Source: Phalacrocorax carbo
Taxonomy: Eukaryota
Length of the DNA stretch: 25,358 nucleotides
Assembly (NCBI RefSeq): GCF_963921805.1
Contig: NC_087541.1
Coordinates: forward strand, 672,482 to 697,839
Direction of reading: 5' to 3'
The first letter of the stretch is position 1, and each line of letters begins with the position of its first letter. This document shows positions 1-25,358 of the stretch, piece by piece. Made by a program: the position numbers and the translations under genes. Below the pieces are notes generated by a model, which saw only the letters and a list, made by a program, of their open reading frames with translations, was not told the DNA's origin and made no database searches.

Positions 1-120
1 GCGCGCGGCGGGGCGGGAGGCGCTATTGGCTGGCGGCGCCGGAAGCCCCGCCCCACCCGCGCGGCGCGAAGGCGGCGATGGCGGCCGGGAGCGATCGCGG
101 CGGCCCCGGGTGAGGCGACG

Positions 121-750
121 GCGCGGGGGGTTGTGGGATATTGGGGGTCCCTCGGGGGGGCGCGGGGGGTTGTGGGATATTGGGGGTCCCTCGGGGGGCG
201 CGGGGGTTGTGGATATTGGGGGTCCCTCGGGGGGGCGCGGGGGGTTGTGGGATATTGGGGGTCCCTCGGGGGGGGCGCGGGGGGTTGTGGGATATTGGGG
301 GGGACCCCGGGGGGGGGCGCGGGGGGTTGTGGGATATTGGGGGGACCCCGGGGGGGCGCGGGGGGTTGTGGGATATTGGGGGGACCCCGCGGGATGGGGG
401 GGGGGCGCGGGGGGTTGTGGGATATTGGGGGGACCCCGGGGGGGGCGCGGGGGGTTGTGGGATATTGGGGGTCCCTCGGGGGGGGCGCGGGGGGTTGTGG
501 GATATTGGGGGGACCCCGGGGGGGCGCGGGGGGTTGTGGGATATTGGGGGGACCCCGGGGGGGGCGCGGGGGGTTGTGGGATATTGGGGGTCCCCGGGGG
601 GGGCGCGGGGGGTTGTGGGATATTGGGGGACCCTCGGGGGGGGCGCGGGGGGTTGTGGGATATTGGGGGGACCCCGGGGGGGGCGCGGGGGGTTGTGGGA
701 TATTGGGGGGGACCCCGCGGGATGGGGGGGGGCGCGGGGGGTTCTGGGAT
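121..750. repeat. about 38-40-bp G-rich minisatellite (GGGGCGCGGGGGGTTGTGGGATATTGGGGGTCCCTCGG), about 16 copies
   Basis: visible tandem periodicity. Confidence 0.85.
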
Positions 751-1466
751 ACGCTGTGACAACCCCCCCCCCCACCCCGTAGGGAGCCGCCGCTGATTGG
801 AGGATCCGCGAAGGGGCGGAGACGGCGCGGGGGGGCGGGGCGAGGGGAGACCACGCCCCCCCGGCTCCGCCCCCGCCTGGCAATGGGGTGAAACCCGGCG
901 AAAATGGGGGCGGGGGGGGAGGGGAGGGGCGAGGGGGGGGCGAGGAGGAGGAGGAGGAGGAGGAGGAGGGGGGGAGGAGGAGGAGGAGGAGGGGGGGGAG
1001 GAAGAGAGGCCGCTCCCGAAGAATGGGGTGAAAAAGGGCAAAAAAAAGGGCTGAGCCCCAAAAGGGGGAAAAAAACTGGGAGAAACGGGGCGAAACGGGG
1101 CGGGATCGAGAGCGAGGAGGGGGAGGGGGGGGAGGAGGAGGAGGAGGAAGAGCAGGAGGAGGAAGAAGGAGAGGAAAAAGGCACAAAGCGGCTCGTAAAA
1201 AATGGGGTGGAAAAGGGCAAAATCAAGACTGAGCCCAAGACAGGGAAAAAACTGCTCAAAAATGGGGTGAAAAGGGGCAAAATCGAGAGCGAGGAGGAGG
1301 AGGAGGACGAGAACAAGGATGAAGATCAGGAGGAGGAAGGAGACACAAAGCGGCTCGTAAAAAATGGGGTGAAAAAAGGGCAAAATAAAGACTGAACCCA
1401 AGAAGGACAAAAAGCCGCTCAAAAATAGGGCGAAAAGGGGCAGAATCGAGAGCGAGGAGGAGGAGG

Positions 1467-2201
1467 ATGAAGAGGAGGATGAAGAGGAGGAGGATGAGAT
1501 CAGGAGAAGGGAGGAGGATGAAGATCAGGAGGAGGAAGGAGACACGAAGCCGCTCGCAAAAATTGGGGCGAAAACAGGCCAAAAAAAGGACTGAGCCTGA
1601 GAAAAGCTCTGTGAGAAACGGGGCGAAAAGGGGCAAAATCGAGAGCGAGGAGGAGGAGGAGGAAGAGGAGGAGGAAGAAGAGGAAGAAAGCACAAAGCGG
1701 CTCGTAGAAATTGGGGGAAAAAAGGGCAAAATAAAGACTGAGGCCAAGAAGGAGAAAAAGCCGCTGAAAAATGGGGCGAAAAGGGGCAAAATCGAGAGCG
1801 AGGAGGAGGAGGAGGAGGAGGATGAAGAGGAAGAAGAGGTGAAGGACCCGCCCCGGAAAAACGGGGTGAAAAAGGGCAAAAAGAGGAGCGAGAAGAACCG
1901 AGCTGTGAAAAACGGGGCGAAAAGGGTGAAATTGGAGAGGGAGAAGAAGAGGAAGAGGAGGAGGAGGAGGAGGAAGAGGAGGAAGAGGAGGAGGAGGAAG
2001 GCGACGAGCCGGCACCGGCAAAACGGGCTCAGAAAGGGCAGAAACGGGCCGAGGAGGAGGAGGAGGAGCGGGCAGGGAGGAAGGCCGAGGCCGAAGAGCG
2101 CCCGGGGGGCGGGGAAGAGGAAGAGGAGCCGGGACTCGTCCTCCTCCTCCTCCTCCTCCTCTTCCTCGCTGGAGGAGGAAGAGCGGCGCCCCCCCCGCAA
2201 G
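1467..2201 (+). CDS. HIRIP3: HIRIP3-like large internal exon (3' part): K/E/S-rich repeats [21 protein letters not shown]..., poly-Ser ...SRDSSSSSSSSSSSLEEEERRPPRK, donor AAG|GTAACC at 2202
   Basis: open frame ending at a strong donor; the Ser run followed by an acidic stretch, and the KNGV motif, resemble the HIRIP3 central region; upstream copies (about 900-1460) switch frame at A-homopolymers, so the true 5' boundary is unknown. Confidence 0.45.
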
Positions 2202-2209
2202 GTAACCAG

Positions 2210-4650
2210 TGCGCCCAGTGAGGGGGGGTTTGGGGGGCACTGGGGGCGTTTGGGGGGGTCTCAGGGGGGGTTCGGGGGGTCTGAGGGGGCGTTTGGGGCG
2301 TCTGGGGGGGGTGAGGTGGGGGTTTGGGGGGTCTGAGGGGGCGTTTGGGGGGTCTGAGGGGGGGTTTGGGGGTCTGAGGGGGCGTTCGGGGGGTCTGAGG
2401 GGGGGTTCGGGGGGTCTGAGGGGGGGTTCGGGGGTCTGAGGGGGGTTCGGGGGGTCTGAGGGGGGTTCGGGGGTCTGAGGGGGGTTCGGGGGGTCTGAGG
2501 GGGCGTTTGGGGGGTCTGAGGGGGGGTTCGGGGGTCTGAGGGGGGGTTCGGGGGGTCTGAGGGGGCGTTTGGGGGGTCTGAGGGGGGGTTCGGGGGTCTG
2601 AGGGGGGGTTCGGGGGGTCTGAGGGGGCGTTTGGGGGGTCTGAGGGGGGGTTCGGGGGGTCTGAGGGGGTGTTTGGGGGTCTGAGGGGGCGTTTGGGGGG
2701 TCTGAGGGGGGGTTCGGGGGGTCTGAGGGGGGGTTCGGGGGGTCTGAGGGGGGGTTCGGGGGTCTGAGGGGGGGTTTGGGGGTCTGAGGCGGGGTTCGGG
2801 GGGTCTGAGGGGGCGTTCGGGGGGTCTGAGGTGGGGTTCGGGGGTCTGAGGGGGGGTTTGGGGGGTCTGAGGCGGGGTTCGGGGGTCTGAGGGGGGGTTT
2901 GGGGGGTCTGAGGGGGCGTTCGGGGGGTCTGAGGGGGGGTTGGGGGGGTCTGAGGGGGCGTTTGGGGGGTCTGAGGGGGGGTTCGGGGGGTCTGAGGGGG
3001 GTTTGGGGGTCTGAGGGGGCGTTTGGGGGGTCTGAGGGGGGGTTCGGGGGGTCTGAGGGGGGGTTCGGGGGGTCTGAGGGGGCGTTTGGGGGTCTGAGGT
3101 GGGGTTCGGGGGGTCTGGGGGGGGTTCGGGGGTCTGAGGGGGGTTCGGGGGGTCTCAGGGGGCGTTTGGGGGGTCTGGGGGGGGTGAGGTGGGGTTCGGG
3201 GGGTCTGAGGGGGGATTCAGGGGGTCTGAGGGGGCGTTTGGGGCGTCTGAGGGGGGGTTCGGGGGGTCTGAGGGGGCGTTTGGGGGGTCTAAGGGGGGGT
3301 TCGGGGGTCTGAGGGGGGGTTCGGGGGGTCTGAGGGGGGGTTTGGGGGGTCTGAGGGGGGGTTCGGGGGGTCTGAGGGGGGGTTTGGGGGTCTGAGGGGG
3401 CGTTTGGGGGGTCTGAGGGGGGGTTCGGGGGGTCTGAGGGGGGGTTCGGGGGGTCTGAGGGGGCGTTTGGGGGGTCTGAGGTGGGGTTCGGGGGGTCTGG
3501 GGGGGGTTCGGGGTCTGAGGGGGGGTTCGGGGGGTCTCAGGGGGCGTTTGGGGGGTCTGGGGGGGGTGAGGTGGGGTTCGGGGGGTCTGAGGGGGGATTC
3601 ATGGGGTCTGAGGGGGCGTTTGGGGCGTCTGAGGGGGGGTTCGGGGGGTCTGAGGGGCGTTTGGGGGGTCTGAGGGGGGGTGAGGGGGGTCTGAGGGGGG
3701 GTTTGGGGGTCTGAGGGGGGGTTCGGGGGGTCTGAGGGGGGATTCAGGGGGTCTGAGGGGGCGTTTGGGGGGTCTGAGGGGGCGTTGGGGGTCTGAGGGG
3801 GGGTTCGGGGGGTCTGAGGGGGGGTTCGGGGGGTCTGAGGGGGCGTTTGGGGGGTCTGAGGCGGGGTTCGGGGGTCTGAGGGGGGGTTCGGGGGGTCTGA
3901 GGGGGCGTTTGGGGGGTCTGAGGTGGGGTTCGGGGGGTCTGGGGGGGGTTCGGGGGTCTGAGGGGGGGTTCGGGGGGGTCTCAGGGGGCGTTTGGGGGGT
4001 CTGGGGGGGGTGAGGTGGGTTCGGGGGGTCTGAGGGGGGATTCAGGGGGTCTGAGGGGGCGTTTGGGGGGTCTGAGGGGGGTTCGGGGGGTCTGAGGGGG
4101 CGTTTGGGGGGTCTGAGGGGGGTTCGGGGGGTCTGAGGGGGGGGTTCGGGGGTCTGAGGGGGGGTTTGGGGGGTCTGAGGGGGGGTTCGGGGGGTCTGAG
4201 GGGGTGTTTGGGGGGTCTAAGGGGGGGTTCGGGGGTCTGAGGGGGGGTTCGGGGGGTCTGAGGGGGGGTTCGGGGGGTCTGAGGGGGGTTGGGGGGGTCT
4301 GAGGGGGGGTTCGGGGGGTCTGAGGGGGGGTTGGGGGGGTCTGAGGGGGGGGTTTGGGGGGTCTGAGGGGGGGTTCGGGGGGTCTGAGGGGGCGTTTGGG
4401 GGGTCTGAGGGGGCGTTTGGGGGGTCTGAGGGGGGGGTTCGGGGGGTCTGAGGGGGGGTTTGGGGGTCTGAGGGGGGGTTCGGGGGGTCTGAGAGGGGGT
4501 TCGGGGGGTCTGAGGGGGGGTTCGGGGGGTCTGAGGGGGGGTTCGGGGGGTTTGAGGGGGCGTTTGGGGGCTCTGAGGGGGGGTTCAGGGGGTCTGACAG
4601 GGGGTTCGGGGGGTCTCAGGGGCGTTTGGGGGGTCTCGGGGGGGGGTTGG
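2210..4650. repeat. 20-21-bp G-rich minisatellite (GGGGGGTCTGAGGGGGCGTTT / ..GGGGTTC), about 120 copies, filling the HIRIP3 intron
   Basis: visible tandem periodicity; G-runs of 5 or more in every unit. Confidence 0.9.
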
Positions 4651-4849
4651 GAGCAATTTAGGGGATCGCTGGGTATTTAGGAGGGTCTTTAATCCTGGGG
4701 GGGGCTCAGAAGGTGAATTTGGGGGGGCGGGAGGGGACTCGGGGGGGCAGGGGGGGACTCGGGGGGGGGGCACTGGGGGGCTGGGGGGGTATCGCGGGGC
4801 GGGGCCCCGCGGGTGCAGCCTCCCACGCCCCCCCCCCGCCCCCCCGCAG

Positions 4850-5016
4850 GTGTCGGGGCGCGGCGGGGGGGGACCCCCCGGCCCTGCGGCGCCTCAAGGG
4901 GTACCTGCGGGCCTGTGGGGCGCGCCCCAACTACAAGAAGCTCCTGGGGGGCTGCCGCAGCCTGCGCGAGAGGGTCGGGGTGCTGCGGGGGGAGCTGCGG
5001 GCCCTCGGCCTCACCG
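4850..5016 (+). CDS. HIRIP3: HIRIP3 exon: (R)CRGAAGGDPPALRRLKGYLRACGARPNYKKLLGGCRSLRERVGVLRGELRALGLT(G), C-terminal conserved HIRIP3 domain
   Basis: strong acceptor (CCTCCCACGCCCCCCCCCGCCCCCCCGCAG ending at 4849); matches human RLKRYxRACGxxRNYKKLLGSCCSHKERLSILRAELEALGMKG; first of five tandem copies of the G|GTGCGG donor at 5017; phase with neighbouring exons is off by 1 nt. Confidence 0.7.
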
Positions 5017-5340
5017 GTGCGGGGCGGGGGGCTGCGGTGGGGGGCTGCGGGGGGAGCTGCGGGCCCTCGGCCTCACCGGTGCGGGGCGGGGGGCTGCGGT
5101 GGGGGGCGGGAGGGGGGGCTGCGGGGCCCTCGGCCTCACCGGTGCGGGGCGGGGGGCTGCGGTGGGGGGCGGGAGGGGGGGCTGCGGGGGGAGCTGCGGG
5201 CCCTCGGCCTCACCGGTGCGGGGCGGGGGGCTGCGGTGGGGGGCGGGAGGGGGGCTGCGGGGGGAGCTGCGGGCCCTCGGCCTCACCGGTGCGGGGCGGG
5301 GGCTGCGGTGGGGGGGCTACGGTGGGGTGGGAGGGGGCTG
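4988..5340. repeat. 62-74-bp tandem repeat of the HIRIP3 exon 3' end plus splice donor (GGAGCTGCGGGCCCTCGGCCTCACCG|GTGCGGGGCGGGGGGCTGCGGTGGGG), 5 copies; a degenerate sixth copy (donor GT mutated to AT) lies at about 5690-5750
   Basis: direct sequence comparison. Confidence 0.85.
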
Positions 5341-6480
5341 CGGGGGCTGAGAGGGGGAACTTGGGGGGCTACGGTGAGTGGGAGGGGGGATGTGGGGGCT
5401 ACGAGGAGTGGGAGGGGGGATGTGGGGGGCTATGGGGGGTGGGAGGGGGGATATGGGGGACTACGAGGGGTGGGAGGGGGGACGTGGGGGGCTACGGCGG
5501 GTGGGAGGGGGGACGTGGGGGGCTGCGGCGTGTGGAAGGGGGAACTTGGGGGGCTACAGGGGGTGGGAGGGGGAATTTGTGGGGTGGGAGGGGGATTTTG
5601 GGGGGCTACAGGGGGTGGAGGGGGAATTTGTGGGGTGGGAGGGGGGATATGGGGGGCTACGGGGGGTGGGAGGAGGGATGTGGGGGGAGCTGCGGGCCCT
5701 CGGCCTCACCGATGCGGGGCGGGGGGCTGCGGGGGGCGGGAGGGGGGATGTGGGGGGTGACAGGGGGAACTTGGGGGGCTACAGGAAGTGGGAGGGGGGA
5801 TATGGGGGGCTACGGGGGGTGGGAGGGGGGATGTGGGGGGACTACGGGGGGTGGGAGGGGGGACGTGGGGGGCTGCGGCGTGTGGGAGGGGGAACTTGGG
5901 GGGCTACAGGGGGTGGAGGGGGAATTTGTGGCATGGGAGGGGGGCTGTGGGGGGCTACCAGATGTGGGAGGGGGGTTGTGGGGGGTGGGAGGGGGGGATA
6001 TGGGGGGTGGGAGGGGGACTTTGGGGGGGCTACAGGGGGTGGGAGGGGGGGATGTGGGGGTGGGAGGGGGGCTGTGGCAGGGGGCAATTTGGGAGGTGGG
6101 GAGGGAGGATATGGGGCCTACAGGGGGTGGGAGGGGGATTTTGGGGGGCTACAGGGGGTGGAGGGGGAATTTGTGGGGTGGGAGGGGGATTTTGGGGGGC
6201 TACCAGATGTGGGAGGGGGGTTGTGGGGGGTGGGAGAGGGGATATGGGGGGCTACGGGGGGGTGGGAGGGGGGGCTGCGGGGGGCAGGAGGGGACTTTCG
6301 GGTGTGGGAGGGGGCTGGGGGGGATTTGGGGGGTCATCGGGGGGTTTGGGGGGGTCTGCGGGGCGCAGGAGGGGGTTTTGGGGGGGATTTTGAGGGGTTG
6401 GAGGGGCGTTTTGGTGGGCAGGAGGGGGGATTTGGGGGGGCTGGGAGGGGGTTTGGGGGCGGCCTAGAGGGGTCGGGCGG
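5340..6480. repeat. about 30-bp G-rich minisatellite (GGCTACGGGGGGTGGGAGGGGGGATGTGGGG), about 35 copies
   Basis: visible periodicity. Confidence 0.85.
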
Positions 6481-6739: not shown

Positions 6740-6839
6740 GACCCCCCCTCTTTGGCTCGCTGCCGGCGCCTCAAACGCCGCCGGGAAGAAGCGGCCGAGC
6801 TGGCGGCGCTCGACGTCGCCAACATCCTCCCCACGCCCG
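6740..6839 (+). CDS. HIRIP3: HIRIP3 exon: DPPSLARCRRLKRRREEAAELAALDVANILPTP(G)
   Basis: acceptor ...CCCCACCCCCCAG ending at 6739 (in-frame TGA at 6719 excludes upstream acceptors); donor G|GTAACG at 6840; matches human TPSLGKCRALKEQREEAAEVASLDVANII. Confidence 0.75.
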
Positions 6840-6975: not shown

Positions 6976-7113
6976 GTCGAACCCGGAGGCGAAACCCGTG
7001 GAACCCCCAAACCCCCCCCGGGGAGAAAATCGGGGGGTCCCCCCCCCCCTCCCCCCCCAGTCGACTGGTCCCGGCTTCGGGGCGTCATTAGCTCCGACGG
7101 CGAGAGCGAGTGA
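6976..7113 (+). CDS. HIRIP3: HIRIP3 terminal exon: (G)RTRRRNPWNPQTPPGE..[frame shift in poly-C]..DWSRLRGVISSDGESE stop (TGA 7111-7113)
   Basis: acceptor CCCACAG ending at 6975, in phase with the previous exon; matches human RPRRRTAWNP..PPGE and the C-terminus PDWSHMRGIISSDGESN; the two conserved blocks are in frames differing by 1 nt across the C11/C8 runs at 7039-7058. Confidence 0.7.
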   Translation, partial: VEPGGETRGTPKPPPGRKSGGPPPPPPPVDWSRLRGVISSDGESE

Positions 7114-7148
7114 CCCCCCCCCCCCCCCCCACCAACCCCCTCCCCAAA

Positions 7149-7154
7149 ATTAAA
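7149..7154 (+). terminator. ATTAAA polyadenylation signal 36 nt downstream of the HIRIP3 stop codon
   Basis: variant poly(A) hexamer in an AT-rich patch (7140-7200) directly after the TGA at 7111. Confidence 0.5.
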
Positions 7155-7260
7155 AACTCCTCGTTTCCAAGGTTTTATGCCTCAAAAAACGTGGGGTTTT
7201 TTTTGAGTTTTTAAGTGGTTTTGGCGGGGGGTTAAAGATGGGGGGGGGTGGGGGGGGGGG

Positions 7261-7445
7261 TTAATACTTGCGCTGGTGAAGAAAAAAACCGGGGGGTCTT
7301 TTTGGGGGGGGGGGGTCGTCTCCTTCCAGCTGGAAAAGGTCCCTCCCCGTCCGGAGAATCTGTTCTTCTAATTTTTTATGGCGTTTCATATCGGATAAAA
7401 CTTTATCGAGGCGCGCCTCCCGCTTCTGCCCGCGGCTGGGGGGGC
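7261..7445 (-). CDS. PAGR1: PAGR1 exon 3 (terminal): (G)[47 protein letters not shown]..[frame shift in C12 run]..LHQRKY stop
   Basis: acceptor CCTCCAG with phase matching exon 2; matches human [39 protein letters not shown]; the conserved C-terminal ...QRKY-stop is reached only in a frame shifted by one nt after the G12 run at +7306-7317; TAA is the complement of 7261-7263. Confidence 0.75.
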
Positions 7446-7554: not shown

Positions 7555-7637
7555 CCGGGGCTCGGCGGCGGTCGATGAGGGAGCTCTTAGGGGCGACGGG
7601 CTCGTCGTCGAAGTCGAACTCGGTGGCGACGGGCGGC
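7555..7637 (-). CDS. PAGR1: PAGR1 exon 2: [28 protein letters not shown]
   Basis: acceptor CCTCCAG (complement of 7638-7644); donor G|GTAAGG (gt is the complement of 7554-7553); matches human [24 protein letters not shown]. Confidence 0.8.
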
Positions 7638-7805: not shown

Positions 7806-9230
7806 GTGAGTGAACCGCCAGGGAGGTCGTCGAGCCGCGAGGGAAATGGCGACCTAAGCCGTGAGGTAAATCGCGAGGGAAATCGCGAGGGAAATCGCGA
7901 GGGAAATCGGGAGGGAAACGGCGAGGGAAATGGCGAGGGAAACGGCGAGGGAAATGGCGAGGGAAATCGGGAGGGAAACGGCGAGGGAAATCGGGAGGGA
8001 AACGGCGAGGGAAATGGCGAGGGAAATCGGGAGGGAAACGGCGAGGGAAACGGCGAGGGAAATGGCGACCTAAGCAGTGAGGTAAATCGCGAGCTAAGCC
8101 ATGAGATAAATCATGAGGTAAATCGCGAGCTAAGCCGTGAGGTAAATCGTGAGGCCGTGAGGTAAATTGTGAGGTAAATCATGAGGTAAATCGTGAGGCC
8201 GTGAGGTAAATTGTGAGGTAAATCATGAGGTAAATCGTGAGGCAAGTCGCGAGCTAAGCCGTGAGATAAATTGTGAAGTCAATCATGAGGTAAATCGCGA
8301 GCTAAGCCATGAGGTAAATTGTGAGGTAAATCGTGAGGTAAATTGTGAGGTAAATCATGAGGTAAATCGTGAGGCCGTGAGGTAAATTGTGAGGTAAATC
8401 ATGAGGTAAATCATGACGCAAGTCGCGAGCTAAGCCGTGAGATAAATTGTGAGGTCAATCATGAGGTAAATCGCGAGCTAAGCCGTGAGGTAAATCATGA
8501 GGTAAATCGCAACCTAAGCCATGAGGTAAATTGTGAGGTAAGCCGTGAGGTAAATTGTGAGGTACATCATGAGGTAAATCGTGAGGCCGTGAGGTAAATT
8601 GTGAGGTAAATCATGAGTTAAATCGTGAGGTAAATCGCGAGCTAAGCCGTGAGGTAAATTGTGAGGTAAATCGTGAGGTAAATCGCGAGCTAAGCCGTGA
8701 GGTAGACTGTGAGGTAAATCGTGAGTTAAATCGTGAGGTAAATCACGAGCTAAGCCGTGAGGTAAACTGTGAGGTAAATCGTGAGGTAAATCGCGACCTA
8801 AGCCATGAGGTAAACTGTGAGGTAAATCGTGAGGTAAATTGTGAGGTAAATCATGAGGTAAATCATGAGGCCGTGAGGTAAATCGTGAGGTAAATCGTGA
8901 GGTAAATCGTGAGGTAAATCGTGAGGTAAATCGTGAGGTAAAGCGTGAGGTAAAGCGTGAGGTAAAGCGTGAGCTAAGCCGTGAGATAAATTGTGAGGCA
9001 AATCATGAGGTAAATCGCAAGCTAAGCCGCGAGGTAAATTGTGAGGTACATCGCGAGCTAAGCTGTGAGGTAAATCGCGAGGTAAGCCGTGAGGTAAACT
9101 GTGAGGTAAGCCGTGAGATAAATTGTGAGATAAATCGTGAGCTAAGCCGTGAGCTAAGCCGTGAGGTAAATGGCGAGGTAAATGGCGACCTAAGCCGTGA
9201 GGTAAACAGCGAGGTAAAACGACAACATTT
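7806..9230. repeat. 12-bp minisatellite (CGAGGGAAATGG / GTGAGGTAAATC), about 118 copies, in PAGR1 intron 1; followed by an A-rich tract at 9235-9275
   Basis: visible periodicity; the unit is a multiple of 3, which explains the long REGNGEGN pseudo-ORF. Confidence 0.9.
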
Positions 9231-9308: not shown

Positions 9309-9669
9309 CTTCTCCTCCTCCTCCTCCTCGCTCTCGGGCTGCCCGGCCGAGCGCGGCTCCTCCTCGCTGTCGGGCTCCGGGGTGGGCGCGCGCCGGGGCA
9401 GCGGGACGTGCCGCAGCGGGAGGCTGCCCTGGTCGGCGATGAGCTCGTAGAGCCGCCGGATATCGGCGGGAGGGGGAAGCCATCCCTCGGGGGGTTCCCC
9501 TTCCTCCTCGCTCCAAGGAACCCCCCAGTCCTCCTCCTCTTCCTCGCCGAGGGGCGAGGGGGGCGGGCGGCGGGCGGCTCTCGCCGGCGCTGGCGGCCGG
9601 GGGGTCGGTGACGGCGAGGGAGCGGAGCCCCGACGTCACCTCCGACGCGTCCTCCGGCGGCGCCGTCAT
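9309..9669 (-). CDS. PAGR1: PAGR1 (PA1) exon 1: [22 protein letters not shown]...[78 protein letters not shown]
   Basis: reverse-strand translation matches human PAGR1 ([58 protein letters not shown]); ATG is the complement of 9667-9669; donor AAG|GTAAGA (gt is the complement of 9308-9307); an internal 1-nt frame inconsistency lies near 9540-9600. Confidence 0.78.
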
Positions 9670-9789: not shown

Positions 9790-10880
9790 TCCTGAGGTGG
9801 TGCTGCCGCCCTCAAGGCCACCGTTTTAATGTCTAAGGTGGTCCTGGTGACCCCCTTGGCCACCAAATTGAGCCCCCCAGGGCCACCCTGGTGTCCCCAC
9901 GGCTACCAAATTCTCCCTGTAGCCACCAAATTGAGCCCTGAGGCAATCTGACCACCTACAATGGCCACTGTTTTAAGGTCTAAGGTGGTCCTGGTGACCC
10001 CGTGGCCACCTAATTCAGCTTTGAGGTGATCCTTGTGGCCACCAAATTGAGCCCAAGGCCACCCCGGTGTCCCCACGGCTACCAAATTCTCCCTGTGGCC
10101 ACCAAATTGAGCCCTGAGGCAATCTGGCCACCTACAATGGCCACCGTTTTAAGGTCTAAGGTGGTCCTGGTGACCCTGTGGCCGCCAAATTGAGCCCTCA
10201 GGTCACCAAATTCTCCCTGTGGCCACCAAATTGAGCCCTGAGGCGATCAGCCACCTACAATGGCCACCGTTTTAAGGTCTAAGTTAGTCTTGGTGACCCC
10301 GTGGCCACCAAATTCAGCCCTGAGGTGATCCTTGTGGCCACCAAATTGAGCCCTCAGGCCACCAAATTGAGCCCTGAGGTGAACCCGATGACCCCGTGGC
10401 CACCAAGGTGAGCACTGAGGTGGTCCTGCTGCCCTCAAGGCCACCGATTTAAGGTCTAAGGTGGTCCTGGTGTCCCCGTGGCCACCAAATTCAGCCCCGA
10501 GGCCACCAAATTGAAGCCTGAGGCGATCGGGCCACCTACAATGGCCACCGTTTTAAGGTCTAAGGTGGTCCTGGTGACCCCGTGGCCACCTAATTCAGCT
10601 TTGAGGTGATCCCTGTGGCCACCAAATTGAGCCCCGAGGTGGTCCTGGTGACCCCGTGGCCACCAAATCGAGCCCCAAGGCCACCCCAGTGTCCCCGTGG
10701 CCACCAAGGTGGGTCCTGAAGTGGTCCTGCCACCTCAAGGCCACCATTTAAAGGTCTAACGTGGTCCTGGTGTCCCCATGGCCACCAAATTGAGGCCTGA
10801 GGCCACCAAATTGTCCCTGTGGCCACCAAGTTGAGCCCTGAGGCGATCGGGCCACCTACAATGGCCGCCATTTTAACGCC
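9790..10880. repeat. complex higher-order satellite (about 270-bp units built from GGCCACCAAATTGAGCCCTGAGG and CTACAATGGCCACCGTTTTAAGGTCTAAGGTGGTCCTGGTGACC), about 4 copies
   Basis: repeated blocks visible at 9960, 10130, 10250, 10530 and 10850. Confidence 0.75.
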
Positions 10881-10899
10881 TGAGGTGATCCCGCCAGCC

Positions 10900-13260: not shown

Positions 13261-13479
13261 GCCGCTTTGGGGTTAAAGCCCGGCTTTTTGGGTATCCCGG
13301 AGCCGCCCCTCCCCCCCCTCCCGGGAAGGAGGGATTCGGGGGGAGGTGGGGGCCCCCCCCCGGAGCTGGAGCCGCCCGGGGGGGGGGGGCGGACGAGGGG
13401 GGCTGGGCGACCCCCGCGGCCCGACGGAGCCGGAGCCGGAGCCGGTGAGGGGCGACCGGGGGCTTGGGGGGGGCCAGGG

Positions 13480-15500
13480 CCGGCGGCACTTGGGGGGCAG
13501 CGGCACTTGGGGGGCAGAGCCGGGGCCCTTGGGGCACTTGGGGCTCGGTAGGACTTGGGGGGCAGAGCCGGGGCCCTTGGGGCACTTGGGGCTCGGTAGG
13601 ACTTGGGGGGCAGAGCCGGGGCCCTTGGGGCACTTGGGGGTCGGTAGGACTTGGGGGGCAGAGCCGGGGTACTTGGGGCTCGGTAGGACTTGGGGGGCAG
13701 AGCCGGGGCCCTTGGGGCACTTGGGGCAGTTTAGGACTTGGGGGGCAGAGCCGGGGCCCTTGGGGCACTTGGGGCTCGGTAGGACTTGGGGGGCAGAGCC
13801 GGGGCCCTTGGGGCACTTGGGGCTCGGTAGGACTTGGGGGGCAGAGCCGGGGCCCTTGGGGCACTTGGGGGTCGGTAGGACTTGGGGGGCAGAGCCGGGG
13901 CCCTTGGGGCACTGGTGGGGCAGACTCTGGGTCTCTTGGGGGGCAACGCTTGGGTCACTTATGGGATCTGTGGGGCACTTGGGGGGGGACCCTGGGGCAA
14001 CTGTGGGGCAGAGCCTAGATCTTAAGTTCTCTTTAGCACTTGTGCTAAAGCACTTGGGGGGCAGCGCTTGGGTCTCTTGGGGGGCAGCGCTTGGGTCTCT
14101 TGTGGGATCTGTGGGGCAGAGCGTGGGGCACTTGGGGGGGCCCCATGGTCCCTTTTGGGAGAGAGCCTGAACCTTGGTCACTTGTGGGGCAGAGCCGGGG
14201 GCACTTGGGGGGCAGCAAGGCTTGTGGGGCAGAGCCTGGACCTTGAGTTCTCTTTAGCACTTGTGGGGCGGAGCGTGGGGCACTTGTGGGGCAGCGGGGC
14301 TTGGGGGGAGGGCCTGGACCCCAGGGACTCTTGTGGGGCAGCGCTTGGGTCGCTTGTGGATTCTGTGGGGCAGAATGTGGGTCACTTGGGGGGCAGAGCC
14401 TGAACCTCTGGAGCACTTGTGGGGCAGGGTGTGGGTCCCTTGGGGGCAGCGTGTGGGTCTCTTGTGGGGCAGTGCTTGGGTAGCTTGTGGGATCTGTGGG
14501 ACCGAGTGTGGGTCACTTGGGGGGCAGAGCCTGGGGCCCTGGGTCACATGTGGGGCAGGGTGTGGGTCACGTGTGGGGCAGGGCCTGTACCCTTGGGTCA
14601 GTTGTGGGGCAGGGCGTGGGTCACTTGGGGGGCAGAGCCTGTACCCCTGGGTCAGTTGTGGGGCAGGGCGTGGGTCACTTGGGGGGCAGAGCCTGTACCC
14701 CTGGGTCAGTTGTGGGGCAGGGCGTGGGTCACGTGTGGGGCAGAGCCTGAACCTTGTGTCACGTGTGGGGCAGGGCGTGGGTCACGTGTGGGGCAGGGCC
14801 TGAACCTTGGGTCACTTGTGGGGCAGGGTGTGGGTCACGTGTGGGATCTGTGGGGCTGAGTGTGGGTCACTTGGGGGGCAGAGCCTGGGGCCTTGGGTCA
14901 CTTGGGGGTCAGAGCCTGGTTCAGTTGTGGGGCAGGGTGTGGGTCACGTGTGGGGCAGAGCCTGTATCCCTGGGTCAGTTGTGGGGCAGAGCCTGCTTCA
15001 GTTGTGGGGCAGGGCCTGTATCCCTGGGTCACTTGGGGGGCAGAGCCTGCTTCAGTTGTGGGGCAGGGCCTGTATCCCTGGGTCACTTGGGGGGCAGAGC
15101 CTGCTTCAGTTGTGGGGCAGAGCCTGTATCCCTGGGTCACTTGGGGGGCAGAGCCTGGTTCAGTTGTGGGGCAGGGCGTGGGTCCCTTGTGGGGCAGAGC
15201 CCGAACCTTGGGTCACTTGGGGGGCAGGGCCTGGGTCACTTGGGGGGCAGAGCCTGCTTCAGTTGTGGGGCAGGGCATGGGTCACGTGTGGGGCAGAGCC
15301 CGAACCTTGGGTCACTTGGGGGGCAGGGCCTGGTTCAGTTGTGGGGCAGGGTGTGGGTCACGTGTGGGGCAGAGCCCGAACCTTGGGTCACTTGGGGGGC
15401 AGGGCCTGGTTCAGTTGTGGGGCAGGGCGTGGGTCACGTGTGGGGCAGAGCCCGAACCTTGGGTCACTTGGGGGGCAGGGCGTGGGTCACGTGTGGGGCA
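13480..15500. repeat. about 60-bp minisatellite family (CTTGGGGCACTTGGGGCTCGGTAGGACTTGGGGGGCAGAGCCGGGGCC, then GGGTCACGTGTGGGGCAGAGCCTGAACCTTGGGTCACTTGTGGGGCAGGGCGTG), about 30 copies
   Basis: visible periodicity. Confidence 0.85.
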
Positions 15501-15638
15501 GAGCCTGCACCCAAGCCACCCCCCCCGCCAGCAGCAGCACTCGGGTGACCCGTGGGGCCCCCCTGCGCCCCGTGGGGCAGCCCTGGCTGACGCGCGGCTC
15601 TGCCCCACGGCCGCTGTGGGGCGGGGGCAGGCGCCGCC

Positions 15639-15758
15639 ATGCCCTGGGGACGCCCGCGGGGCCCCCCCGGGGCCGGGCTCTTCCTGCAGGGGGACCCCGA
15701 GCGGCTCTTCGGGGACCTGCGCGAGATCGGCCACGGCAGCTTCGGCGCCGTCTACTTC
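15639..15758 (+). CDS. TAOK2: TAOK2 coding exon 1: start codon in gccgccATGc Kozak context, [40 protein letters not shown], kinase subdomain I (Gly loop)
   Basis: ATG at 15639; translation matches the TAO kinase N-terminus ([22 protein letters not shown] in human); phase-0 donor GTGAGT at 15759. Confidence 0.88.
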
Positions 15759-17310: not shown

Positions 17311-17382
17311 GCGCGGGACAGGCGGACGAGCGAGGTGGTGGCCATCAAGAAGATGTGCTACGGCGGGAAGCAGTCCAATGAG
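17311..17382 (+). CDS. TAOK2: TAOK2 exon 2: ARDRRTSEVVAIKKMCYGGKQSNE (VAIK catalytic lysine)
   Basis: polypyrimidine tract plus CAG acceptor ending at 17310; GTGGGA donor at 17383; in phase with exon 1; matches ARDVRNSEVVAIKKMSYSGKQSNE. Confidence 0.9.
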
Positions 17383-17384
17383 GT

Positions 17385-17935
17385 GGGAGGCCCCGCCCCC
17401 GGGTGGGGAGGCCCCGCCCCTTCCCCTCCCGGGTGGGGAGGCCCCGCCCCTTCCCCTCCCGGGTGGGGAGGCCCCGCCCCTTCCCCTCCCGGGTGGGGAG
17501 GCCCCGCCCCTTCCCCTCCCGGGTGGGGAGGCCCCGCCCCTTGCCCTCCCGGGTGGGGAGGCCCCGCCCCCAGAGAGGCAGGCCCCGCCCCCTTTGCCCC
17601 CCTCCAGGGTGGGGAGGCCCTGCTCCCCTTTCCCCTGATGGGAGACCCCGCCCCCAGAGAGGCAGGCCACGCCCCCCTTTTCCCCTGGGTGGGGAGGTCA
17701 CGCCCCCTCCCCCCTGGGTGCAGAGACCCCGCCCCCAGAGAGGAAGGCCCCGCCCCCTTTGCCCCCCTCCTGGGTGCGGAGACCCCGCCCCCCTTTTCCC
17801 CCGGGTGCGTAGGCCACGCCCCCCGGGTGCAGAGACCCCGCCCCCAGAGAGGGAGGCCCCGCCCCCTTTGCCCCCTCCTGGGTGGGGAGGCCCCGCCCCA
17901 CGCCGGCCCCGCCCCACGCCGGCCCCGCCCCACAG
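17385..17935. repeat. 30-bp repeat CCGGGTGGGGAGGCCCCGCCCCTTCCCCTC, about 17 copies, each with a consensus Sp1 GC box; fills TAOK2 intron 2
   Basis: visible periodicity; GGCCCCGCCCC in every unit. Confidence 0.85.
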
Positions 17936-18037
17936 AAGTGGCAGGACATCGTGAAGGAGGTGCAGCTGCTGCAGCGCCTGCGTCACCCCAACACCATCGA
18001 GTTCAAGGGCTGTTACCTGCGCGGCCACACGGCCTGG
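17936..18037 (+). CDS. TAOK2: TAOK2 exon 3: [34 protein letters not shown]
   Basis: acceptor CACAG ending at 17935; donor GTGAGC at 18038; phase 0; LRHPNTI and GCYLR..HTAW match TAOK2. Confidence 0.9.
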
Positions 18038-18059
18038 GTGAGCCCCCCACGTGTGGGGC

Positions 18060-18720
18060 GGGGGCGGGGGCCCTCCTTCGGGGGGTCCTGGGGGGCGGCG
18101 GGACCCACAGGAGGGGCTGGGGGCTCCCTTGGGGGATGTAGGGGGCGTCTTGGGGGGCAGCGGGGCTCGTAGGTGTGGGGTGAGGGGGTGTCGGGACCCA
18201 TAGGTGTGGGGCTGCGGGGTTCCTTGGGGGCTGTAGGGGGGGTGTTGGGTGGCAGCGGGACCCACAGGAGGGGCGGGGGCGTTTTTTGGGGGGTGTTGGG
18301 ACCCACAGATGTGGGGCACGGGGACAGTCGGGAGGCATGAGACCCATACATATGGGGCTGGGGGATTATCAGGACTCACAGATGAGGGTCAGGGGAGCAG
18401 CTGGGGGGTGCCAGGACCCACAGATGTGGCGCGGGGGGCAGTTGGGGGGCACCAGGACCCCCAGATGTGGGGCAGGGGGGCAGTTGGGCGGTGCAAGGAC
18501 CCCCAGATGTGGGGCAGGGGGGCAGTTGGGGGGTGCCAGGACCCACAGATGTGGCGCAGGGGGGCAGTTGTGGGCTAGTTGGGAAACACAGATGTGGGGC
18601 GGGGGACAGTTGGGCGGTGCCAGGACCCCCAGATGTGGGGCAGGGGGGCAGTTGGGCGGTGCCAGAACCCACAGATGTGGGGCAGGGGGGCAGTTGGGAG
18701 GCACGGGCCCCATAACCGGG
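18060..18720. repeat. about 60-bp repeat (GGACCCACAGATGTGGGGCAGGGGGGCAGTTGGGCGGTGCCA), about 9 copies, in TAOK2 intron 3
   Basis: visible periodicity. Confidence 0.8.
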
Positions 18721-18850
18721 CCCTGGTGGCGCTTTGACAGTGGGGCAAACCCCCCATAGCGCGGCCCTGACGTGGGGTCGGGCCCTGCCCCACGGCAAGA
18801 CTTGGGGGGCAGCTGTGGGGCAGGCGCTGACCCCTCTCTCCCCCCCCAAG

Positions 18851-18896
18851 CTGGTCATGGAGTATTGCCTGGGCTCGGCCTCCGACCTGCTGGAGG
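18851..18896 (+). CDS. TAOK2: TAOK2 exon 4: LVMEYCLGSASDLLE plus 1 nt of a split codon
   Basis: acceptor AAG ending at 18850; donor G|GTGAGT at 18897; identical to human LVMEYCLGSASDLLE. Confidence 0.9.
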
Positions 18897-19006
18897 GTGA
18901 GTGGCGGCGCCGTGGGGCGGCAGCGCCGTGGGGCGGCGGCGCCGTGGGGCGGTGCCGTGGGGCGCCCCACGGCTGCCCCTGCCCCACGCCGCTCCTGCCC
19001 CCCAAG

Positions 19007-19103
19007 CGCACAAGAAGCCGCTGCAGGAGGGGGAGATCGCGGCCATCACGCACGGGGCGCTGCGGGGCCTGGCCTACCTGCACGGCCACGACGTCATCCA
19101 CAG
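19007..19103 (+). CDS. TAOK2: TAOK2 exon 5: (A)[31 protein letters not shown](R), catalytic-loop HR
   Basis: acceptor CCAAG ending at 19006 completes the split Ala codon; donor AG|GTGTGT at 19104; phase consistent with exons 4 and 6. Confidence 0.88.
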
Positions 19104-21026: not shown

Positions 21027-21140
21027 GGACGTCAAAGCCGGCAACATCCTGCTGACGGCGCCGGGCGAGGTGAAACTGGGCGATTTCGGGTCGGCCTCCG
21101 TCGTGGCGCCGGCCAATTCCTTCGTGGGGACGCCCTATTG
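21027..21140 (+). CDS. TAOK2: TAOK2 exon 6: (R)[37 protein letters not shown](W), catalytic loop, DFG, activation segment
   Basis: acceptor TTTAG ending at 21026; donor TG|GTGAGG at 21141; RDVKAGN and KLGDFG are TAOK2-type (TAOK1/3 have DIKAGN and KLADFG). Confidence 0.9.
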
Positions 21141-21202
21141 GTGAGGGAGGCGCCCCTCCCCCTTCCCCTCCGCCCCCACACTTGTGGGGCTCAGCCCCAT
21201 AG

Positions 21203-21515
<313 letters not shown>

Positions 21516-21524
21516 GTGCGCAGA

Positions 21525-23345: not shown

Positions 23346-23427
23346 GTCGGAGCTCTTCCGCCAGTTCGTGGCCTCCTGCCTGCAGAAGCCGCCCCCCCAG
23401 CGCCCCCCCTCCCGCCTCCTCCTGCAG
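23346..23427 (+). CDS. TAOK2: TAOK2 exon 9: (W)SELFRQFVASCLQKPPPQRPPSRLLLQ
   Basis: acceptor CCGCAG ending at 23345; donor CAG|GTAACG at 23428; matches [27 protein letters not shown]. Confidence 0.88.
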
Positions 23428-23526
23428 GTAACGCCCCTCCCCCACCCGCCCCCGCCCCCCGCCGGGGCCCCTCCCCCGCGCCCCCTCCCCCAACGCCGCC
23501 CCCCTGCCCCTGCCCCTCCCCCACAG

Positions 23527-23706
23527 CACCCCTTCCTGCTCCGCCCGCGCCCCCCCGGCGTCGTCGCCCGCCTCCTGCGCCGCGCCCGCGCCGCCGCCCC
23601 TCCCCCACGCCGCCGCGGGCTGGGGGGGCTGCTCCGCGGGCCCGATCCTGGCGGCGGCGACGATGACGACGACGACGAGGAGGATGATGACGACGACGAG
23701 GAGGAG
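23527..23706 (+). CDS. TAOK2: TAOK2 exon 10: HPFLLRPRPPGVVARLLRRARAAAPPPRRRGLGGLLRGPDPGGGDDDDDDEEDDDDDEEE (post-kinase segment plus acidic tract)
   Basis: acceptor CCACAG ending at 23526; donor GAG|GTGACG at 23707; aligns positionally with [21 protein letters not shown]...EAPEEEEE, but the central part is strongly diverged. Confidence 0.7.
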
Positions 23707-23759
23707 GTGACGAAGGCTCCTGCCCTGCGGGGGGGTTTGGGGGGGGGGCGTTTAGGGTA

Positions 23760-24610
23760 CCGTGGGGCGGCTCCCAGGGGTCTCGGGGGTGTCCCTGGGG
23801 GTCCCTGTCACCTCCCTGGGGGTCCCTGGGGGTCCCTGTCCCCTCCTGGGGGTCCCTGGGGGTCCCTGTCACCTCCCTGGGGGTCCCTGGGGGTCCCTGG
23901 GGGTCCCTGTCCCCTCCCTGGGGGTCCCTGGGGGTCCCTGTCCCCTCCCGGGGGGTCCCTGGGGTCCCTGTCACCTCCCTGGGGGTCCCTGGGGGTCCCT
24001 GTCCCCTCCCTGGGGGGTCCCTGGGGGTCCCTGTCACCTCTCTGGGGGTCCCTGGGGGTCCCTGTCCCCTCCCACGGGGTCCCTGGGGGTCCCTGTCACC
24101 TCCCTGGGGGTCCCTGGGGGTCCCTGGGGGTCCCTGTCCCCTCCCTGGGGGGTCCCTGGGGGTCCCTGTCCCCTCCCTGGGGGTCCCTGGGGGTCCCTGT
24201 CACCTCCCGGGGGGTCCCTGGGGGTCCCTGTCACCTCCCTGGGGGTCCCTGGGGGTCCCTGGGGGTCCCTGTCCCCTCCCTGGGGGGTCCCTGGGGGTCC
24301 CTGTCCCCTCCCGGGGGGTCCCTGGGGGTCCCTGTCCCCTCCCACGGGGTCCCTGGGGGTCCCTGTCCCCTCCCTGGGGGGTCCCTGGGGGTCCCTGGGG
24401 GTCCCTGTCCCCTCCCTGGGGGGTCCCTGGGGGTCCCTGGGGGTCCCTGTCCCCTCCCTGGGGGGTCCCTGGGGGTCCCTGGGGGTCCCTGTCCCCTCCC
24501 TGGGGGTCCCTGTCCCCTCCCTGGGGGTCCCTGGGGGTCCCTGTCACCTCCCGGGGGGTCCCTGGGGGTCCCTGTCCCCTCCCTGGGGGGTCCCTGGGGG
24601 TCCCTGTCAC
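23760..24610. repeat. about 30-bp G-rich repeat (GGGGGTCCCTGGGGGTCCCTGTCCCCTCCCTG), about 28 copies, in TAOK2 intron 10
   Basis: visible periodicity. Confidence 0.85.
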
Positions 24611-24679
24611 CCCCTGGAGCTCTGGGGGATCCCCGTGTCCCCCCCCGTGACCCCCCTGACCCCCCCCCCCCACTGGCAG

Positions 24680-24871
24680 GAGGCGGAGCCGTCGGGCAGC
24701 ACCGAGCGCAGCCATTGGCCGCCCAGCGCGTCCGTCAGCGCCTCCAGCAGCGGCACCAGCCTGGGCGACGCCTCCGAGGAGGAGGAGGAGGGGCGGGGGG
24801 AGGGGGAGGAAGGCCCCGAGACCCCCCCGCTGCAGGACGGGGAGACCCTGGGCGCCCCCCACGGCCCCGAC
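24680..24871 (+). CDS. TAOK2: TAOK2 exon 11: EAEPSGSTERSHWPPSASVSASSSGTSLGDASEEEEEGRGEGEEGPETPPLQDGETLGAPHGPD (Ser-rich/acidic linker)
   Basis: acceptor GGCAG ending at 24679; donor GAC|GTGAGC at 24872; aligns with human AEPYMHRAG..SMSISASSQSSSVNSLADASDNEEEE..EGPEAREM. Confidence 0.8.
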
Positions 24872-25161
24872 GTGAGCTGGGGGGGGAGGGGAGGGGGGAG
24901 GGGCACCCTGGGGGGGGGAGGGGCGGGTTGGGGGGGGCGGGGCACCCCGGGGGGGGATGGGGGGGGAGGGGCACTGGGAGGGGTTGGGGGGACATGGGGG
25001 GGGGGGGGAGGGGGTGGCACCGCAAGGGGGGGTGGGGGGATGCGGGGGGGGGGATGGGGGGCTCGGCGCCGGCCTATCAGCATCGGGGATGTTGGTGGCG
25101 CAGCTCCGCCCCCCGCGGGGCGGGGCCTGACCCACACACCCCCCATTTCTTCCCCCCGCAG

Positions 25162-25290
25162 CCCCCCGACGGCCTCGGCGCCCCCCCGGCCCCGCCCCCG
25201 CCCCTCCCCCCGCTGGAGGAGGGCCTGAGGGCGGAGCTCGCCCAGCTCCGCCCCTGCCCCGCCCCCGAGAGCCCGCCCCAGGCCGACGAG
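25162..25290 (+). CDS. TAOK2: tentative TAOK2 exon 12: PPDGLGAPPAPPPPLPPLEEGLRAELAQLRPCPAPESPPQADE
   Basis: good acceptor (CCCCCCGCAG ending at 25161) and donor (GAG|GTGGGA at 25291); open frame in phase with exon 11; only weak Pro-rich similarity to the TAOK2 linker. Confidence 0.45.
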
Positions 25291-25358
25291 GTGGGAGGGG
25301 CTTCGGAGGGTGTGGCTGGGTGGGAGGGGCTTGCGTGGGTGTGGTCGGGGAGCCACGC

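What the first reader, a model, noticed from the sequence alone, without database searches (positions are those of the whole stretch)
1..25358. 16p11.2 genes present but rearranged: HIRIP3(+) then PAGR1(-), then a CpG island, then TAOK2(+)
In human the order is PRRT2-PAGR1-MVP ... TMEM219-TAOK2(+)-HIRIP3(-), with TAOK2 and HIRIP3 tail-to-tail. Here the HIRIP3 3' end lies upstream of TAOK2 on the same strand, and PAGR1 sits between them on the opposite strand, about 6 kb from the TAOK2 start codon. This implies one or more inversions within the conserved 16p11.2 block, or a misjoin in this repeat-dense assembly.
Basis: partly seen in the sequence, partly recalled or inferred. Interest (0 to 1): 0.5.

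Follow-up and report, generated by a model that had tools for sequence, protein, structure and literature searches.

The report
Normal bird order of HIRIP3, PAGR1, TAOK2

Summary
The window holds the 3' part of HIRIP3 on + (to the stop at 7111-7113). PAGR1 lies on - (ATG 9669, stop 7261-7263). The 5' part of TAOK2 is on + (ATG 15639). Nearly all inferred splice sites are canonical AG/GT, and every intron is filled with GC-rich minisatellites.

The misjoin reading is not supported. Two cuckoo assemblies carry TAOK2 | PAGR1 | HIRIP3 with the same strands. A pigeon assembly carries PAGR1(-)/TAOK2(+) about 5.6 kb apart. Ostrich and alligator have PAGR1 and HIRIP3 tail to tail. Both ends of the 147-bp HIRIP3-PAGR1 junction align to cuckoo and ostrich. 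The layout of the PAGR1-TAOK2 spacer recurs in cuckoo and pigeon.

Xenopus keeps the human-like PAGR1-MVP pair, so the PAGR1-HIRIP3 adjacency is probably derived in turtles plus archosaurs. Ostrich and alligator have a SEZ6L2-like gene upstream of PAGR1. The TAOK2/PAGR1 head-to-head pair was therefore seen only in Neoaves.

This is real but ordinary. The same order is visible in annotated public assemblies. Gene order in this region was already reported as not conserved in zebrafish.

Side note: HIRIP3 and PAGR1 exons show at least five 1-bp frame breaks at homopolymer runs. These are probably base-level assembly errors.

The parts
900..2201 (+). HIRIP3 large Lys/Glu/Ser-rich exon made of 153-199 bp coding repeats. 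The donor GT is at 2202-2203. The 5' edge is uncertain.
   Evidence: Translation shows the repeated unit TKRLV..GKKGKIKTE.KK.KKPLKNGAKRGKIESEEEE. Tandem repeats were found and the donor site. The reading frame jumps at about 1375-1395 and about 1575-1600, both at A-runs.
2219..4651 (.). HIRIP3 intron filled by a 21-bp G-rich minisatellite (about 117 copies).
4849..5016 (+). HIRIP3 exon encoding DPPALRRLKGYLRACGARPNYKKLLGGCRSLRERVGVLRGELRALGLT.
   Evidence: tblastn hits (84% identity to owl HIRIP3). Splice sites. There is a frame break at the G8 run at about 4864-4871.
5027..6461 (.). HIRIP3 intron with 31/62/137-bp G-rich minisatellites.
6740..6839 (+). HIRIP3 exon carrying the CHZ-like motif (PSLARCRRLKRRREEAAELAALDVANILP).
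   Evidence: Pfam CHZ scores 22.1 bits, just under the 23.3-bit cut-off.
6976..7113 (+). HIRIP3 last exon, ending ...VDWSRLRGVISSDGESE with stop TGA at 7111-7113.
   Evidence: There is a frame break in the C-runs at about 7010-7055.
7114..7260 (.). 147-bp tail-to-tail spacer between the HIRIP3 stop and the PAGR1 stop.
   Evidence: The coding ends on both sides align to Cuculus, Phaenicophaeus and Struthio. The spacer there is also short, tens to about 110 bp, and is itself poorly conserved.
7261..7435 (-). PAGR1 exon 3 ([32 protein letters not shown]...QRKY, stop TAA).
   Evidence: (96% identity to penguin).
7555..7637 (-). PAGR1 exon 2 ([26 protein letters not shown]).
7860..9218 (.). PAGR1 intron 1, holding a 12-bp minisatellite (CGTGAGGTAAAT, about 115 copies). 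It is the only low-GC stretch of the window.
9310..9669 (-). PAGR1 exon 1 (ATG at 9669; [20 protein letters not shown] ... [34 protein letters not shown]...).
   Evidence: There is a 1-bp frame break in a C-run at about 9555-9575.
9857..10891 (.). Tandem array of about 300 bp (GGCCACCAAATT...) next to the PAGR1 5' end.
   Evidence: The consensus unit is related to the 72-bp array at the same place in cuckoos: local alignment score 43 against 13.9 +/- 2.5 for shuffles, with 0 of 500 shuffles reaching it. blastn between the arrays themselves found nothing.
12000..13500 (.). Non-repetitive CpG-rich spacer, probably the TAOK2 promoter or a 5' non-coding exon (inferred).
   Evidence: CpG obs/exp is 0.67-0.95. 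A 46-bp block at 13169-13214 is 85% identical to the pigeon spacer. None of its ORFs has a Pfam domain.
13505..15507 (.). G-rich minisatellites with a 48-bp unit and then 23/31/54-bp units with core GGTCACTTGTGGGGCAG, ending just upstream of the TAOK2 ATG.
   Evidence: Related 31-bp arrays lie within about 1 kb upstream of the TAOK2 ATG in Cuculus and Caloenas.
15639..15758 (+). TAOK2 first coding exon ([40 protein letters not shown]).
   Evidence: donor GTGAGT
17311..19103 (+). TAOK2 exons 2-5 at 17311-17382, 17936-18037, 18851-18896 and 19007-19103, separated by C-rich minisatellite introns.
21027..21519 (+). TAOK2 exons 6-8 at 21027-21140, 21241-21332 and about 21421-21519, covering kinase subdomains DVKAGN...[20 protein letters not shown].
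23347..24862 (+). TAOK2 exons 9-11 at 23347-23427, from 23527 to about 23570 or beyond, and about 24668-24862. The gene runs off the window.

Best explanation
The window is a correctly joined piece of a GC-rich, minisatellite-laden bird microchromosome region. Its closest PAGR1 proteins come from penguin, stork and albatross. It carries the ordinary avian arrangement HIRIP3(+) | PAGR1(-) | TAOK2(+).

Shown here:
- PAGR1 and HIRIP3 are tail to tail in ostrich, alligator, two cuckoos and this window.
- TAOK2 and PAGR1 are head to head in two cuckoos, a pigeon and this window.
- All three genes are under purifying selection in the conserved exon segments compared.

Inferred:
- The PAGR1-HIRIP3 adjacency arose in the turtle plus archosaur stem.
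- The amphibian/mammal state (PAGR1 followed by MVP) is ancestral.
- The TAOK2/PAGR1 adjacency arose later, in or before early Neoaves.
- That adjacency possibly arose by loss or relocation of the SEZ6L2-side genes that sit upstream of PAGR1 in ostrich and alligator.
For: Same order in other assemblies (annotation, exon mapping):
- Cuculus canorus CM030674.1: TAOK2(-) | PAGR1(+) | HIRIP3(-).
- Phaenicophaeus curvirostris: the same order and strands.
- Caloenas nicobarica CM069743.1: PAGR1(-) | TAOK2(+) | CDIPT(+).
- Ostrich and alligator: PAGR1(+) | HIRIP3(-), followed by INO80E(+). The INO80E Pfam hit is in alligator only.

Other support:
- Both coding ends of the HIRIP3-PAGR1 junction align across species.
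- The spacer is colinear with other species. PAGR1 exon 1 is followed by a GGCCACC-type array, then a conserved 46-bp block, then a 31-bp-type minisatellite, then the TAOK2 ATG exon.
- dN/dS is 0.05-0.31 for conserved exons of all three genes.
- Xenopus has KIF22 | PAGR1 | MVP, which polarises the change.
- No SEZ6L2-like exons occur in the window or in the neoavian loci.
- No Pfam domain occurs in spacer ORFs.
Against: - No read-level data for this assembly were available.
- The order is not universal in Neoaves as assembled. The parrot has Trypsin(-) | TAOK2(+) with no PAGR1 or HIRIP3 between them. The honeyguide has an SSF transporter gene upstream of TAOK2. The wagtail has PAGR1 between VKOR and a fibrinogen-domain gene. 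These are either further rearrangements or incomplete assemblies.
- The position of TAOK2 in ostrich and alligator could not be seen.
- Frame breaks at homopolymers show that the assembly is imperfect at base level.
- The dN/dS values were computed only on exon segments chosen for their similarity, which biases them low.
Confidence: 0.88

Rival explanations
1. The window is a chimeric contig. The assembler misjoined HIRIP3, PAGR1 and TAOK2 pieces through repeats.
For: The window is extremely repeat-dense (106 TRF rows). It also contains base-level errors, seen as frame breaks at homopolymers.
Against: - Both junctions are reproduced in independently assembled genomes of other species.
- The HIRIP3-PAGR1 junction is a 147-bp sequence that TRF does not flag as a tandem repeat, and its flanks align to other birds.
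- The PAGR1-TAOK2 spacer has the same internal layout as in cuckoo and pigeon.
- There are no N gaps.
Confidence: 0.03
2. A recent inversion or transposition specific to this species or its close relatives produced the order.
For: The order differs from human, and from the parrot, honeyguide and wagtail assemblies.
Against: The identical order and strands occur in Cuculiformes and Columbiformes, which are distant neoavian orders. The PAGR1-HIRIP3 half occurs in ostrich and alligator.
Confidence: 0.04
3. The HIRIP3 and PAGR1 copies here are decaying pseudogenes or paralogous copies, so the 'order' does not concern the functional orthologues.
For: There are at least five 1-bp frame breaks in HIRIP3 and PAGR1 exons.
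Against: - All the breaks sit in homopolymer runs of at least 6 nt.
- The inferred splice junctions are canonical AG/GT, and orthologous exon segments map in the same order in other species.
- dN/dS is 0.05-0.29 in the conserved exon segments.
- PAGR1 is 91-96% identical to penguin PAGR1 over its conserved exons.
- The locus is orthologous by its neighbours in five other species.
Confidence: 0.05

Closest known systems
Annotated TAOK2-PAGR1-HIRIP3 loci of Cuculus canorus (GCA_017976375.1, CM030674.1) and Phaenicophaeus curvirostris (GCA_032191515.2)
   Same: The three genes have the same order and relative strands. PAGR1 and HIRIP3 are tail to tail with a short spacer. A GGCCACC-type tandem array lies beside the PAGR1 5' end. 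In Cuculus, a related minisatellite lies upstream of the TAOK2 ATG.
   Different: The cuckoo spacer is 2-2.6 kb, against 6 kb here. Cuckoo introns are shorter and less GC-rich (locus GC 0.56-0.58, against 0.65-0.80 across most of the window).
Caloenas nicobarica locus (GCA_036013445.1, CM069743.1)
   Same: PAGR1(-) and TAOK2(+) are head to head and about 5.6 kb apart. A 31-bp CTGGGTCACTTATGGGGCAG-type minisatellite lies directly upstream of the TAOK2 ATG.
   Different: HIRIP3 is not visible because the locus ends about 1.3 kb beyond PAGR1. CDIPT follows TAOK2, a region that lies outside this window.
Ostrich (GCA_040807025.1) and American alligator (GCA_030867095.1) loci
   Same: PAGR1(+) and HIRIP3(-) are tail to tail. 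In alligator, HIRIP3 is head to head with INO80E, as in human.
   Different: The gene upstream of PAGR1 is a CUB/Sushi (SEZ6L2-like) gene on the same strand, not TAOK2. No trace of that gene exists in the window.
Human 16p11.2 BP4-BP5 interval, and the Xenopus tropicalis PAGR1 locus
   Same: The gene content is the same (PAGR1, TAOK2, HIRIP3, INO80E, CDIPT and others linked). The HIRIP3-INO80E pairing is also kept in alligator.
   Different: In human and Xenopus, PAGR1 is followed by MVP. In human, TAOK2 lies tail to tail with HIRIP3 (established knowledge; listing order in PMC11211608). Here PAGR1 sits between the two, tail to tail with HIRIP3 and head to head with TAOK2.

Membership tests
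PAGR1 (PAXIP1-associated glutamate-rich protein 1) orthologue | PAXIP1_C domain (PF15364) above the Pfam cut-off, with closest homologues named PAGR1 | tested here: met
   PF15364 scores 136.2 bits against a cut-off of 27 (E 9.6e-40). The top hits are bird and reptile PAGR1, with a best E of 8e-89.
HIRIP3 orthologue | C-terminal CHZ-type histone chaperone motif | tested here: inconclusive
   Pfam CHZ scores 22.1 bits against a cut-off of 23.3 (E 1e-4), which is just below threshold.
HIRIP3 orthologue | Closest named homologues are HIRIP3, and the position is conserved next to PAGR1 and INO80E | tested here: met
   Athene noctua 'HIRA-interacting protein 3' scores E 9e-44 at 75% identity. Orthologous exons lie next to PAGR1 in ostrich, alligator, turtle and cuckoos. 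INO80E lies beside it in alligator.
TAOK2 orthologue (as against TAOK1 or TAOK3) | STE20/TAO-type kinase domain, with the closest bird hits named TAO2 and neighbours from the 16p11.2 set | tested here: met
   Pkinase scores E 3.5e-62. The bird hits are named TAO2 or TAO2-like. CDIPT follows TAOK2 in pigeon, honeyguide and parrot. No phylogenetic tree was built.
Assembly misjoin (chimeric contig) | The junction is not reproduced in independent assemblies of related species | tested here: not met
   Both junctions are reproduced. The junction flanks and the spacer layout are conserved.
Assembly misjoin (chimeric contig) | No long reads span the junctions in this individual | not testable with these tools
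   No read data were available.
Lineage-specific (new) inversion in this genome | The arrangement is absent from outgroup bird orders | tested here: not met
   It is present in Cuculiformes and Columbiformes, and half of it is present in ostrich and alligator.

The most novel reading that the evidence does not exclude
This is a three-step model, inferred and untested.

1. In the archelosaur stem, the human-like block SEZ6L2-ASPHD1-KCTD13-TAOK2 was inverted in place between CDIPT and HIRIP3.
2. PAGR1 moved in next to HIRIP3.
3. Neoaves then lost or relocated KCTD13-ASPHD1-SEZ6L2. That fused TAOK2 and PAGR1 into a divergent pair.

The spacer of that pair has kept the same minisatellite families in place since the early neoavian radiation. 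Related arrays flank the TAOK2 ATG exon in opposite orientation, which might matter for regulation or DNA structure.
Probability: 0.3. Interest if true: 0.3.

Novelty: already known. Interest (0 to 1): 0.15.

Why it matters
The main value is as quality control. A suspicious-looking gene order in a very repeat-rich, GC-rich bird contig turns out to be structurally correct and typical of birds.

It also shows that micro-order within the 16p11.2 gene set is not conserved across tetrapods. Human order should therefore not be used as the yardstick for misassembly in sauropsids.

The homopolymer frame breaks warn that gene models from this assembly need base-level polishing.

Tried and rejected
- tblastn without composition correction gave hundreds of low-complexity hits. 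It was replaced by SEG plus composition-based statistics.
- tblastx of the ostrich SEZ6L2-like region against the window returned 4,358 hits, which I judged to be low-complexity noise. It was replaced by exon peptides conserved between alligator and ostrich. These found nothing in the window or in the neoavian loci.
- The look-up of the stork PAGR1 (P0003) failed because the protein was not on record.
- The TAOK2 protein search returned no ostrich, alligator or usable chicken entry.
- blastn between the window's 300-bp array and the cuckoo arrays found nothing. Only the consensus units align above shuffles, so that homology claim is kept weak.
- Rfam found nothing. The single ARAGORN tRNA-Arg call lies inside a minisatellite and is dismissed.
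- Pfam on nine spacer ORFs found nothing.
- Literature searches found no paper describing this bird gene order.
Full report
**What is in the window.** The sequence is 65-80% GC over most of its length and almost wholly made of tandem repeats between short unique islands. Probing with peptides and then with database proteins places three genes.

HIRIP3 lies on the + strand.
- Its Lys/Glu-rich exon ends at a GT donor at 2202.
- Further exons lie at 4849-5016, 6740-6839 and 6976-7113, with the stop at 7111-7113.

PAGR1 lies on the - strand.
- The ATG is at 9669.
- Exons lie at 9669-9310, 7637-7555 and 7435-7261.

TAOK2 lies on the + strand.
- The ATG is at 15639.
- Eleven exons were traced to about 24862.

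Nearly all inferred boundaries are canonical AG/GT. The donor of TAOK2 exon 8, the boundaries of exons 10-11 and the start of the large HIRIP3 exon were not resolved.

The gene identities rest on several results.
- Pfam PAXIP1_C scores E 9.6e-40 and Pkinase E 3.5e-62, while CHZ falls just below its cut-off.
- The named homologues are PAGR1 of Eudyptes (93% identity), Ciconia and Thalassarche.
- HIRIP3 matches 'HIRA-interacting protein 3' of Athene noctua at E 9e-44.
- The bird hits to the kinase are named TAO2 or TAO2-like.

The source is therefore a bird, probably a waterbird relative.

**Is it a misjoin?** I fetched the PAGR1 or TAOK2 neighbourhoods of ten other species and mapped the window's exon peptides onto them.
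- Cuculus canorus and Phaenicophaeus curvirostris both read TAOK2(-) | PAGR1(+) | HIRIP3(-). This is the window read from the other strand.
- Caloenas nicobarica reads PAGR1(-) | TAOK2(+) | CDIPT(+), with about 5.6 kb between the two first coding exons.
- Ostrich and alligator read SEZ6L2-like(+) | PAGR1(+) | HIRIP3(-) | INO80E(+). The INO80E Pfam hit is in alligator only.
- A turtle reads PAGR1(+) | phosphatase gene(+) | HIRIP3(-).

The flanks of the 147-bp HIRIP3-PAGR1 junction align to both cuckoos and to ostrich. These flanks are the last codons of each gene. In those species the spacer between the stops is likewise only tens to about 110 bp.

The PAGR1-TAOK2 spacer is colinear with other birds.
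- PAGR1 exon 1 and the TAOK2 ATG exon match at its two ends.
- A 46-bp block in the CpG-rich part matches pigeon.
- The G-rich minisatellite just upstream of the TAOK2 ATG (core GGTCACTTGTGGGGCAG) matches 31-bp arrays in the same position in Cuculus and Caloenas.
- The roughly 300-bp array beside PAGR1 is related, at consensus level only, to the 72-bp array beside cuckoo PAGR1.

Independent assemblies of other species would not reproduce an assembly chimera in this way, so I reject the misjoin reading.

**Are these the functional orthologues?** Conserved exon segments give dN/dS of 0.05-0.31 against five to nine other species. This estimate is biased low because the segments were chosen by similarity. 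The neighbours also match. Against this, HIRIP3 and PAGR1 show at least five 1-bp frame breaks:
- at about 1375-1395 and about 1575-1600, in A-runs inside the coding repeats;
- at 4864-4871, in a G8 run;
- at about 7010-7055, in C8 and C11 runs;
- at about 9555-9575, in a C-run of PAGR1 exon 1.

All of them sit in homopolymers, and the peptide simply continues in the next frame. By my splice-phase bookkeeping, the first eight TAOK2 exons stay in frame. Base-level assembly error is the likeliest cause. Pseudogenisation cannot be excluded without reads.

**How the order relates to human.** In human, PAGR1 is followed by MVP, and TAOK2(+) lies tail to tail with HIRIP3(-), which in turn is head to head with INO80E. 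This is established knowledge, and the gene listing in PMC11211608 is consistent with it.
- Xenopus has KIF22 | PAGR1 | MVP, so PAGR1-MVP is the older state.
- A lizard keeps KIF22 | PAGR1, but ASPHD1(-) follows.
- The PAGR1-HIRIP3 adjacency is therefore best read as derived in turtles plus archosaurs.
- The TAOK2/PAGR1 head-to-head pair was seen only in Neoaves.
- No SEZ6L2-like exon remains in the window or in the cuckoo and pigeon loci, and the spacer ORFs have no Pfam domain.

A model that fits all the loci seen has three steps. The SEZ6L2-to-TAOK2 block is inverted in place, which also explains the same-strand TAOK2-CDIPT pair in birds. PAGR1 then moves next to HIRIP3. KCTD13-ASPHD1-SEZ6L2 is later lost or moved in Neoaves. 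This is inference only. I could not see where TAOK2 lies in ostrich or alligator.

**Caveats.** Three neoavian assemblies differ.
- The parrot has Trypsin(-) | TAOK2(+) with no PAGR1 or HIRIP3 between them. Cuckoos have Trypsin beyond HIRIP3.
- The honeyguide has an SSF transporter gene upstream of TAOK2.
- The wagtail has PAGR1 between VKOR and a fibrinogen-domain gene.

These may be further rearrangements or incomplete assemblies.

**Novelty.** The arrangement is plainly visible in annotated public bird assemblies. Non-conservation of order among 16p11.2 homologues was already noted for zebrafish (PMC3484866). I found no paper on the bird order, but nothing here is new in kind. The verdict is a real feature that is structurally sound, ordinary for birds and of low interest.

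Noticed in passing
window ~1375-1395, ~1575-1600, 4864-4871, ~7010-7055 (HIRIP3); ~9555-9575 (PAGR1 exon 1): There are at least five 1-bp reading-frame breaks, each inside a homopolymer run, in exons that are otherwise conserved. The peptide continues in the neighbouring frame. The TRF periods of the HIRIP3 coding repeats are 163 and 199 bp, each one more than a multiple of three. This is probably homopolymer-length error in the assembly, and less likely pseudogenisation.
   Followed up: partly
window 14000-15500 versus 15780-17100: Minisatellites sharing the core GCACTTGTGGGGC flank the TAOK2 ATG exon in opposite orientation. There are 14 core copies on + upstream and 21 on - in intron 1, with none on the other strand in either array. 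Arm pairs are 72-82% complementary over 33-50 nt. The GC skew flips sign at the exon. Cuculus shows a weaker version.
   Followed up: partly
window 13880-15507; L003 and L009 just upstream of the TAOK2 ATG: A 31-bp-type minisatellite (GGTCACTTGTGGGGCAG...) occupies the same position upstream of the TAOK2 ATG in this bird, in Cuculus canorus and in Caloenas nicobarica. The array family has therefore stayed in place across distant neoavian orders. Eleven of the window's units carry GTCACGTG, which contains the E-box-like hexamer CACGTG. None of the other species' units does.
   Followed up: partly
window 7860-9218: PAGR1 intron 1 is a 12-bp minisatellite (CGTGAGGTAAAT, about 115 copies). It is the only low-GC stretch (0.44-0.47) in the window, and it has the highest CpG obs/exp (about 1.5).
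   Followed up: no
window 2219-4651, 5027-6461, 15779-17277, 19228-21019, 21527-23325, 23777-24617: Every intron of HIRIP3 and TAOK2 is filled with strand-biased GC-rich minisatellites (units of 10-62 bp, up to 117 copies). Exons make up only a small part of the sequence.
   Followed up: no
window 24371-24464: ARAGORN calls a 94-nt tRNA-Arg(CCT) inside the 10/31-bp minisatellite of a TAOK2 intron. Rfam finds nothing there. It is almost certainly a false positive.
   Followed up: partly
L004 (Motacilla alba) 15600-15758 and 16273-16422: The wagtail locus has two copies of the last PAGR1 exon about 0.6 kb apart, and different neighbours (VKOR and a fibrinogen-domain gene). No HIRIP3 lies within the 4.9 kb available downstream.
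   Followed up: no
L007 (Malaclemys terrapin) 12637-16297: In the turtle, a dual-specificity-phosphatase-domain gene sits between PAGR1 and HIRIP3. Archosaurs have only a short spacer there.
   Followed up: no
L011 (Pezoporus) and L010 (Indicator): In these assemblies the TAOK2 5' neighbour is a trypsin-domain gene (parrot) or an SSF transporter gene (honeyguide). No PAGR1 or HIRIP3 lies within 10 kb. In cuckoos the trypsin gene lies just beyond HIRIP3, so the parrot looks like the cuckoo order minus HIRIP3 and PAGR1.
   Followed up: partly
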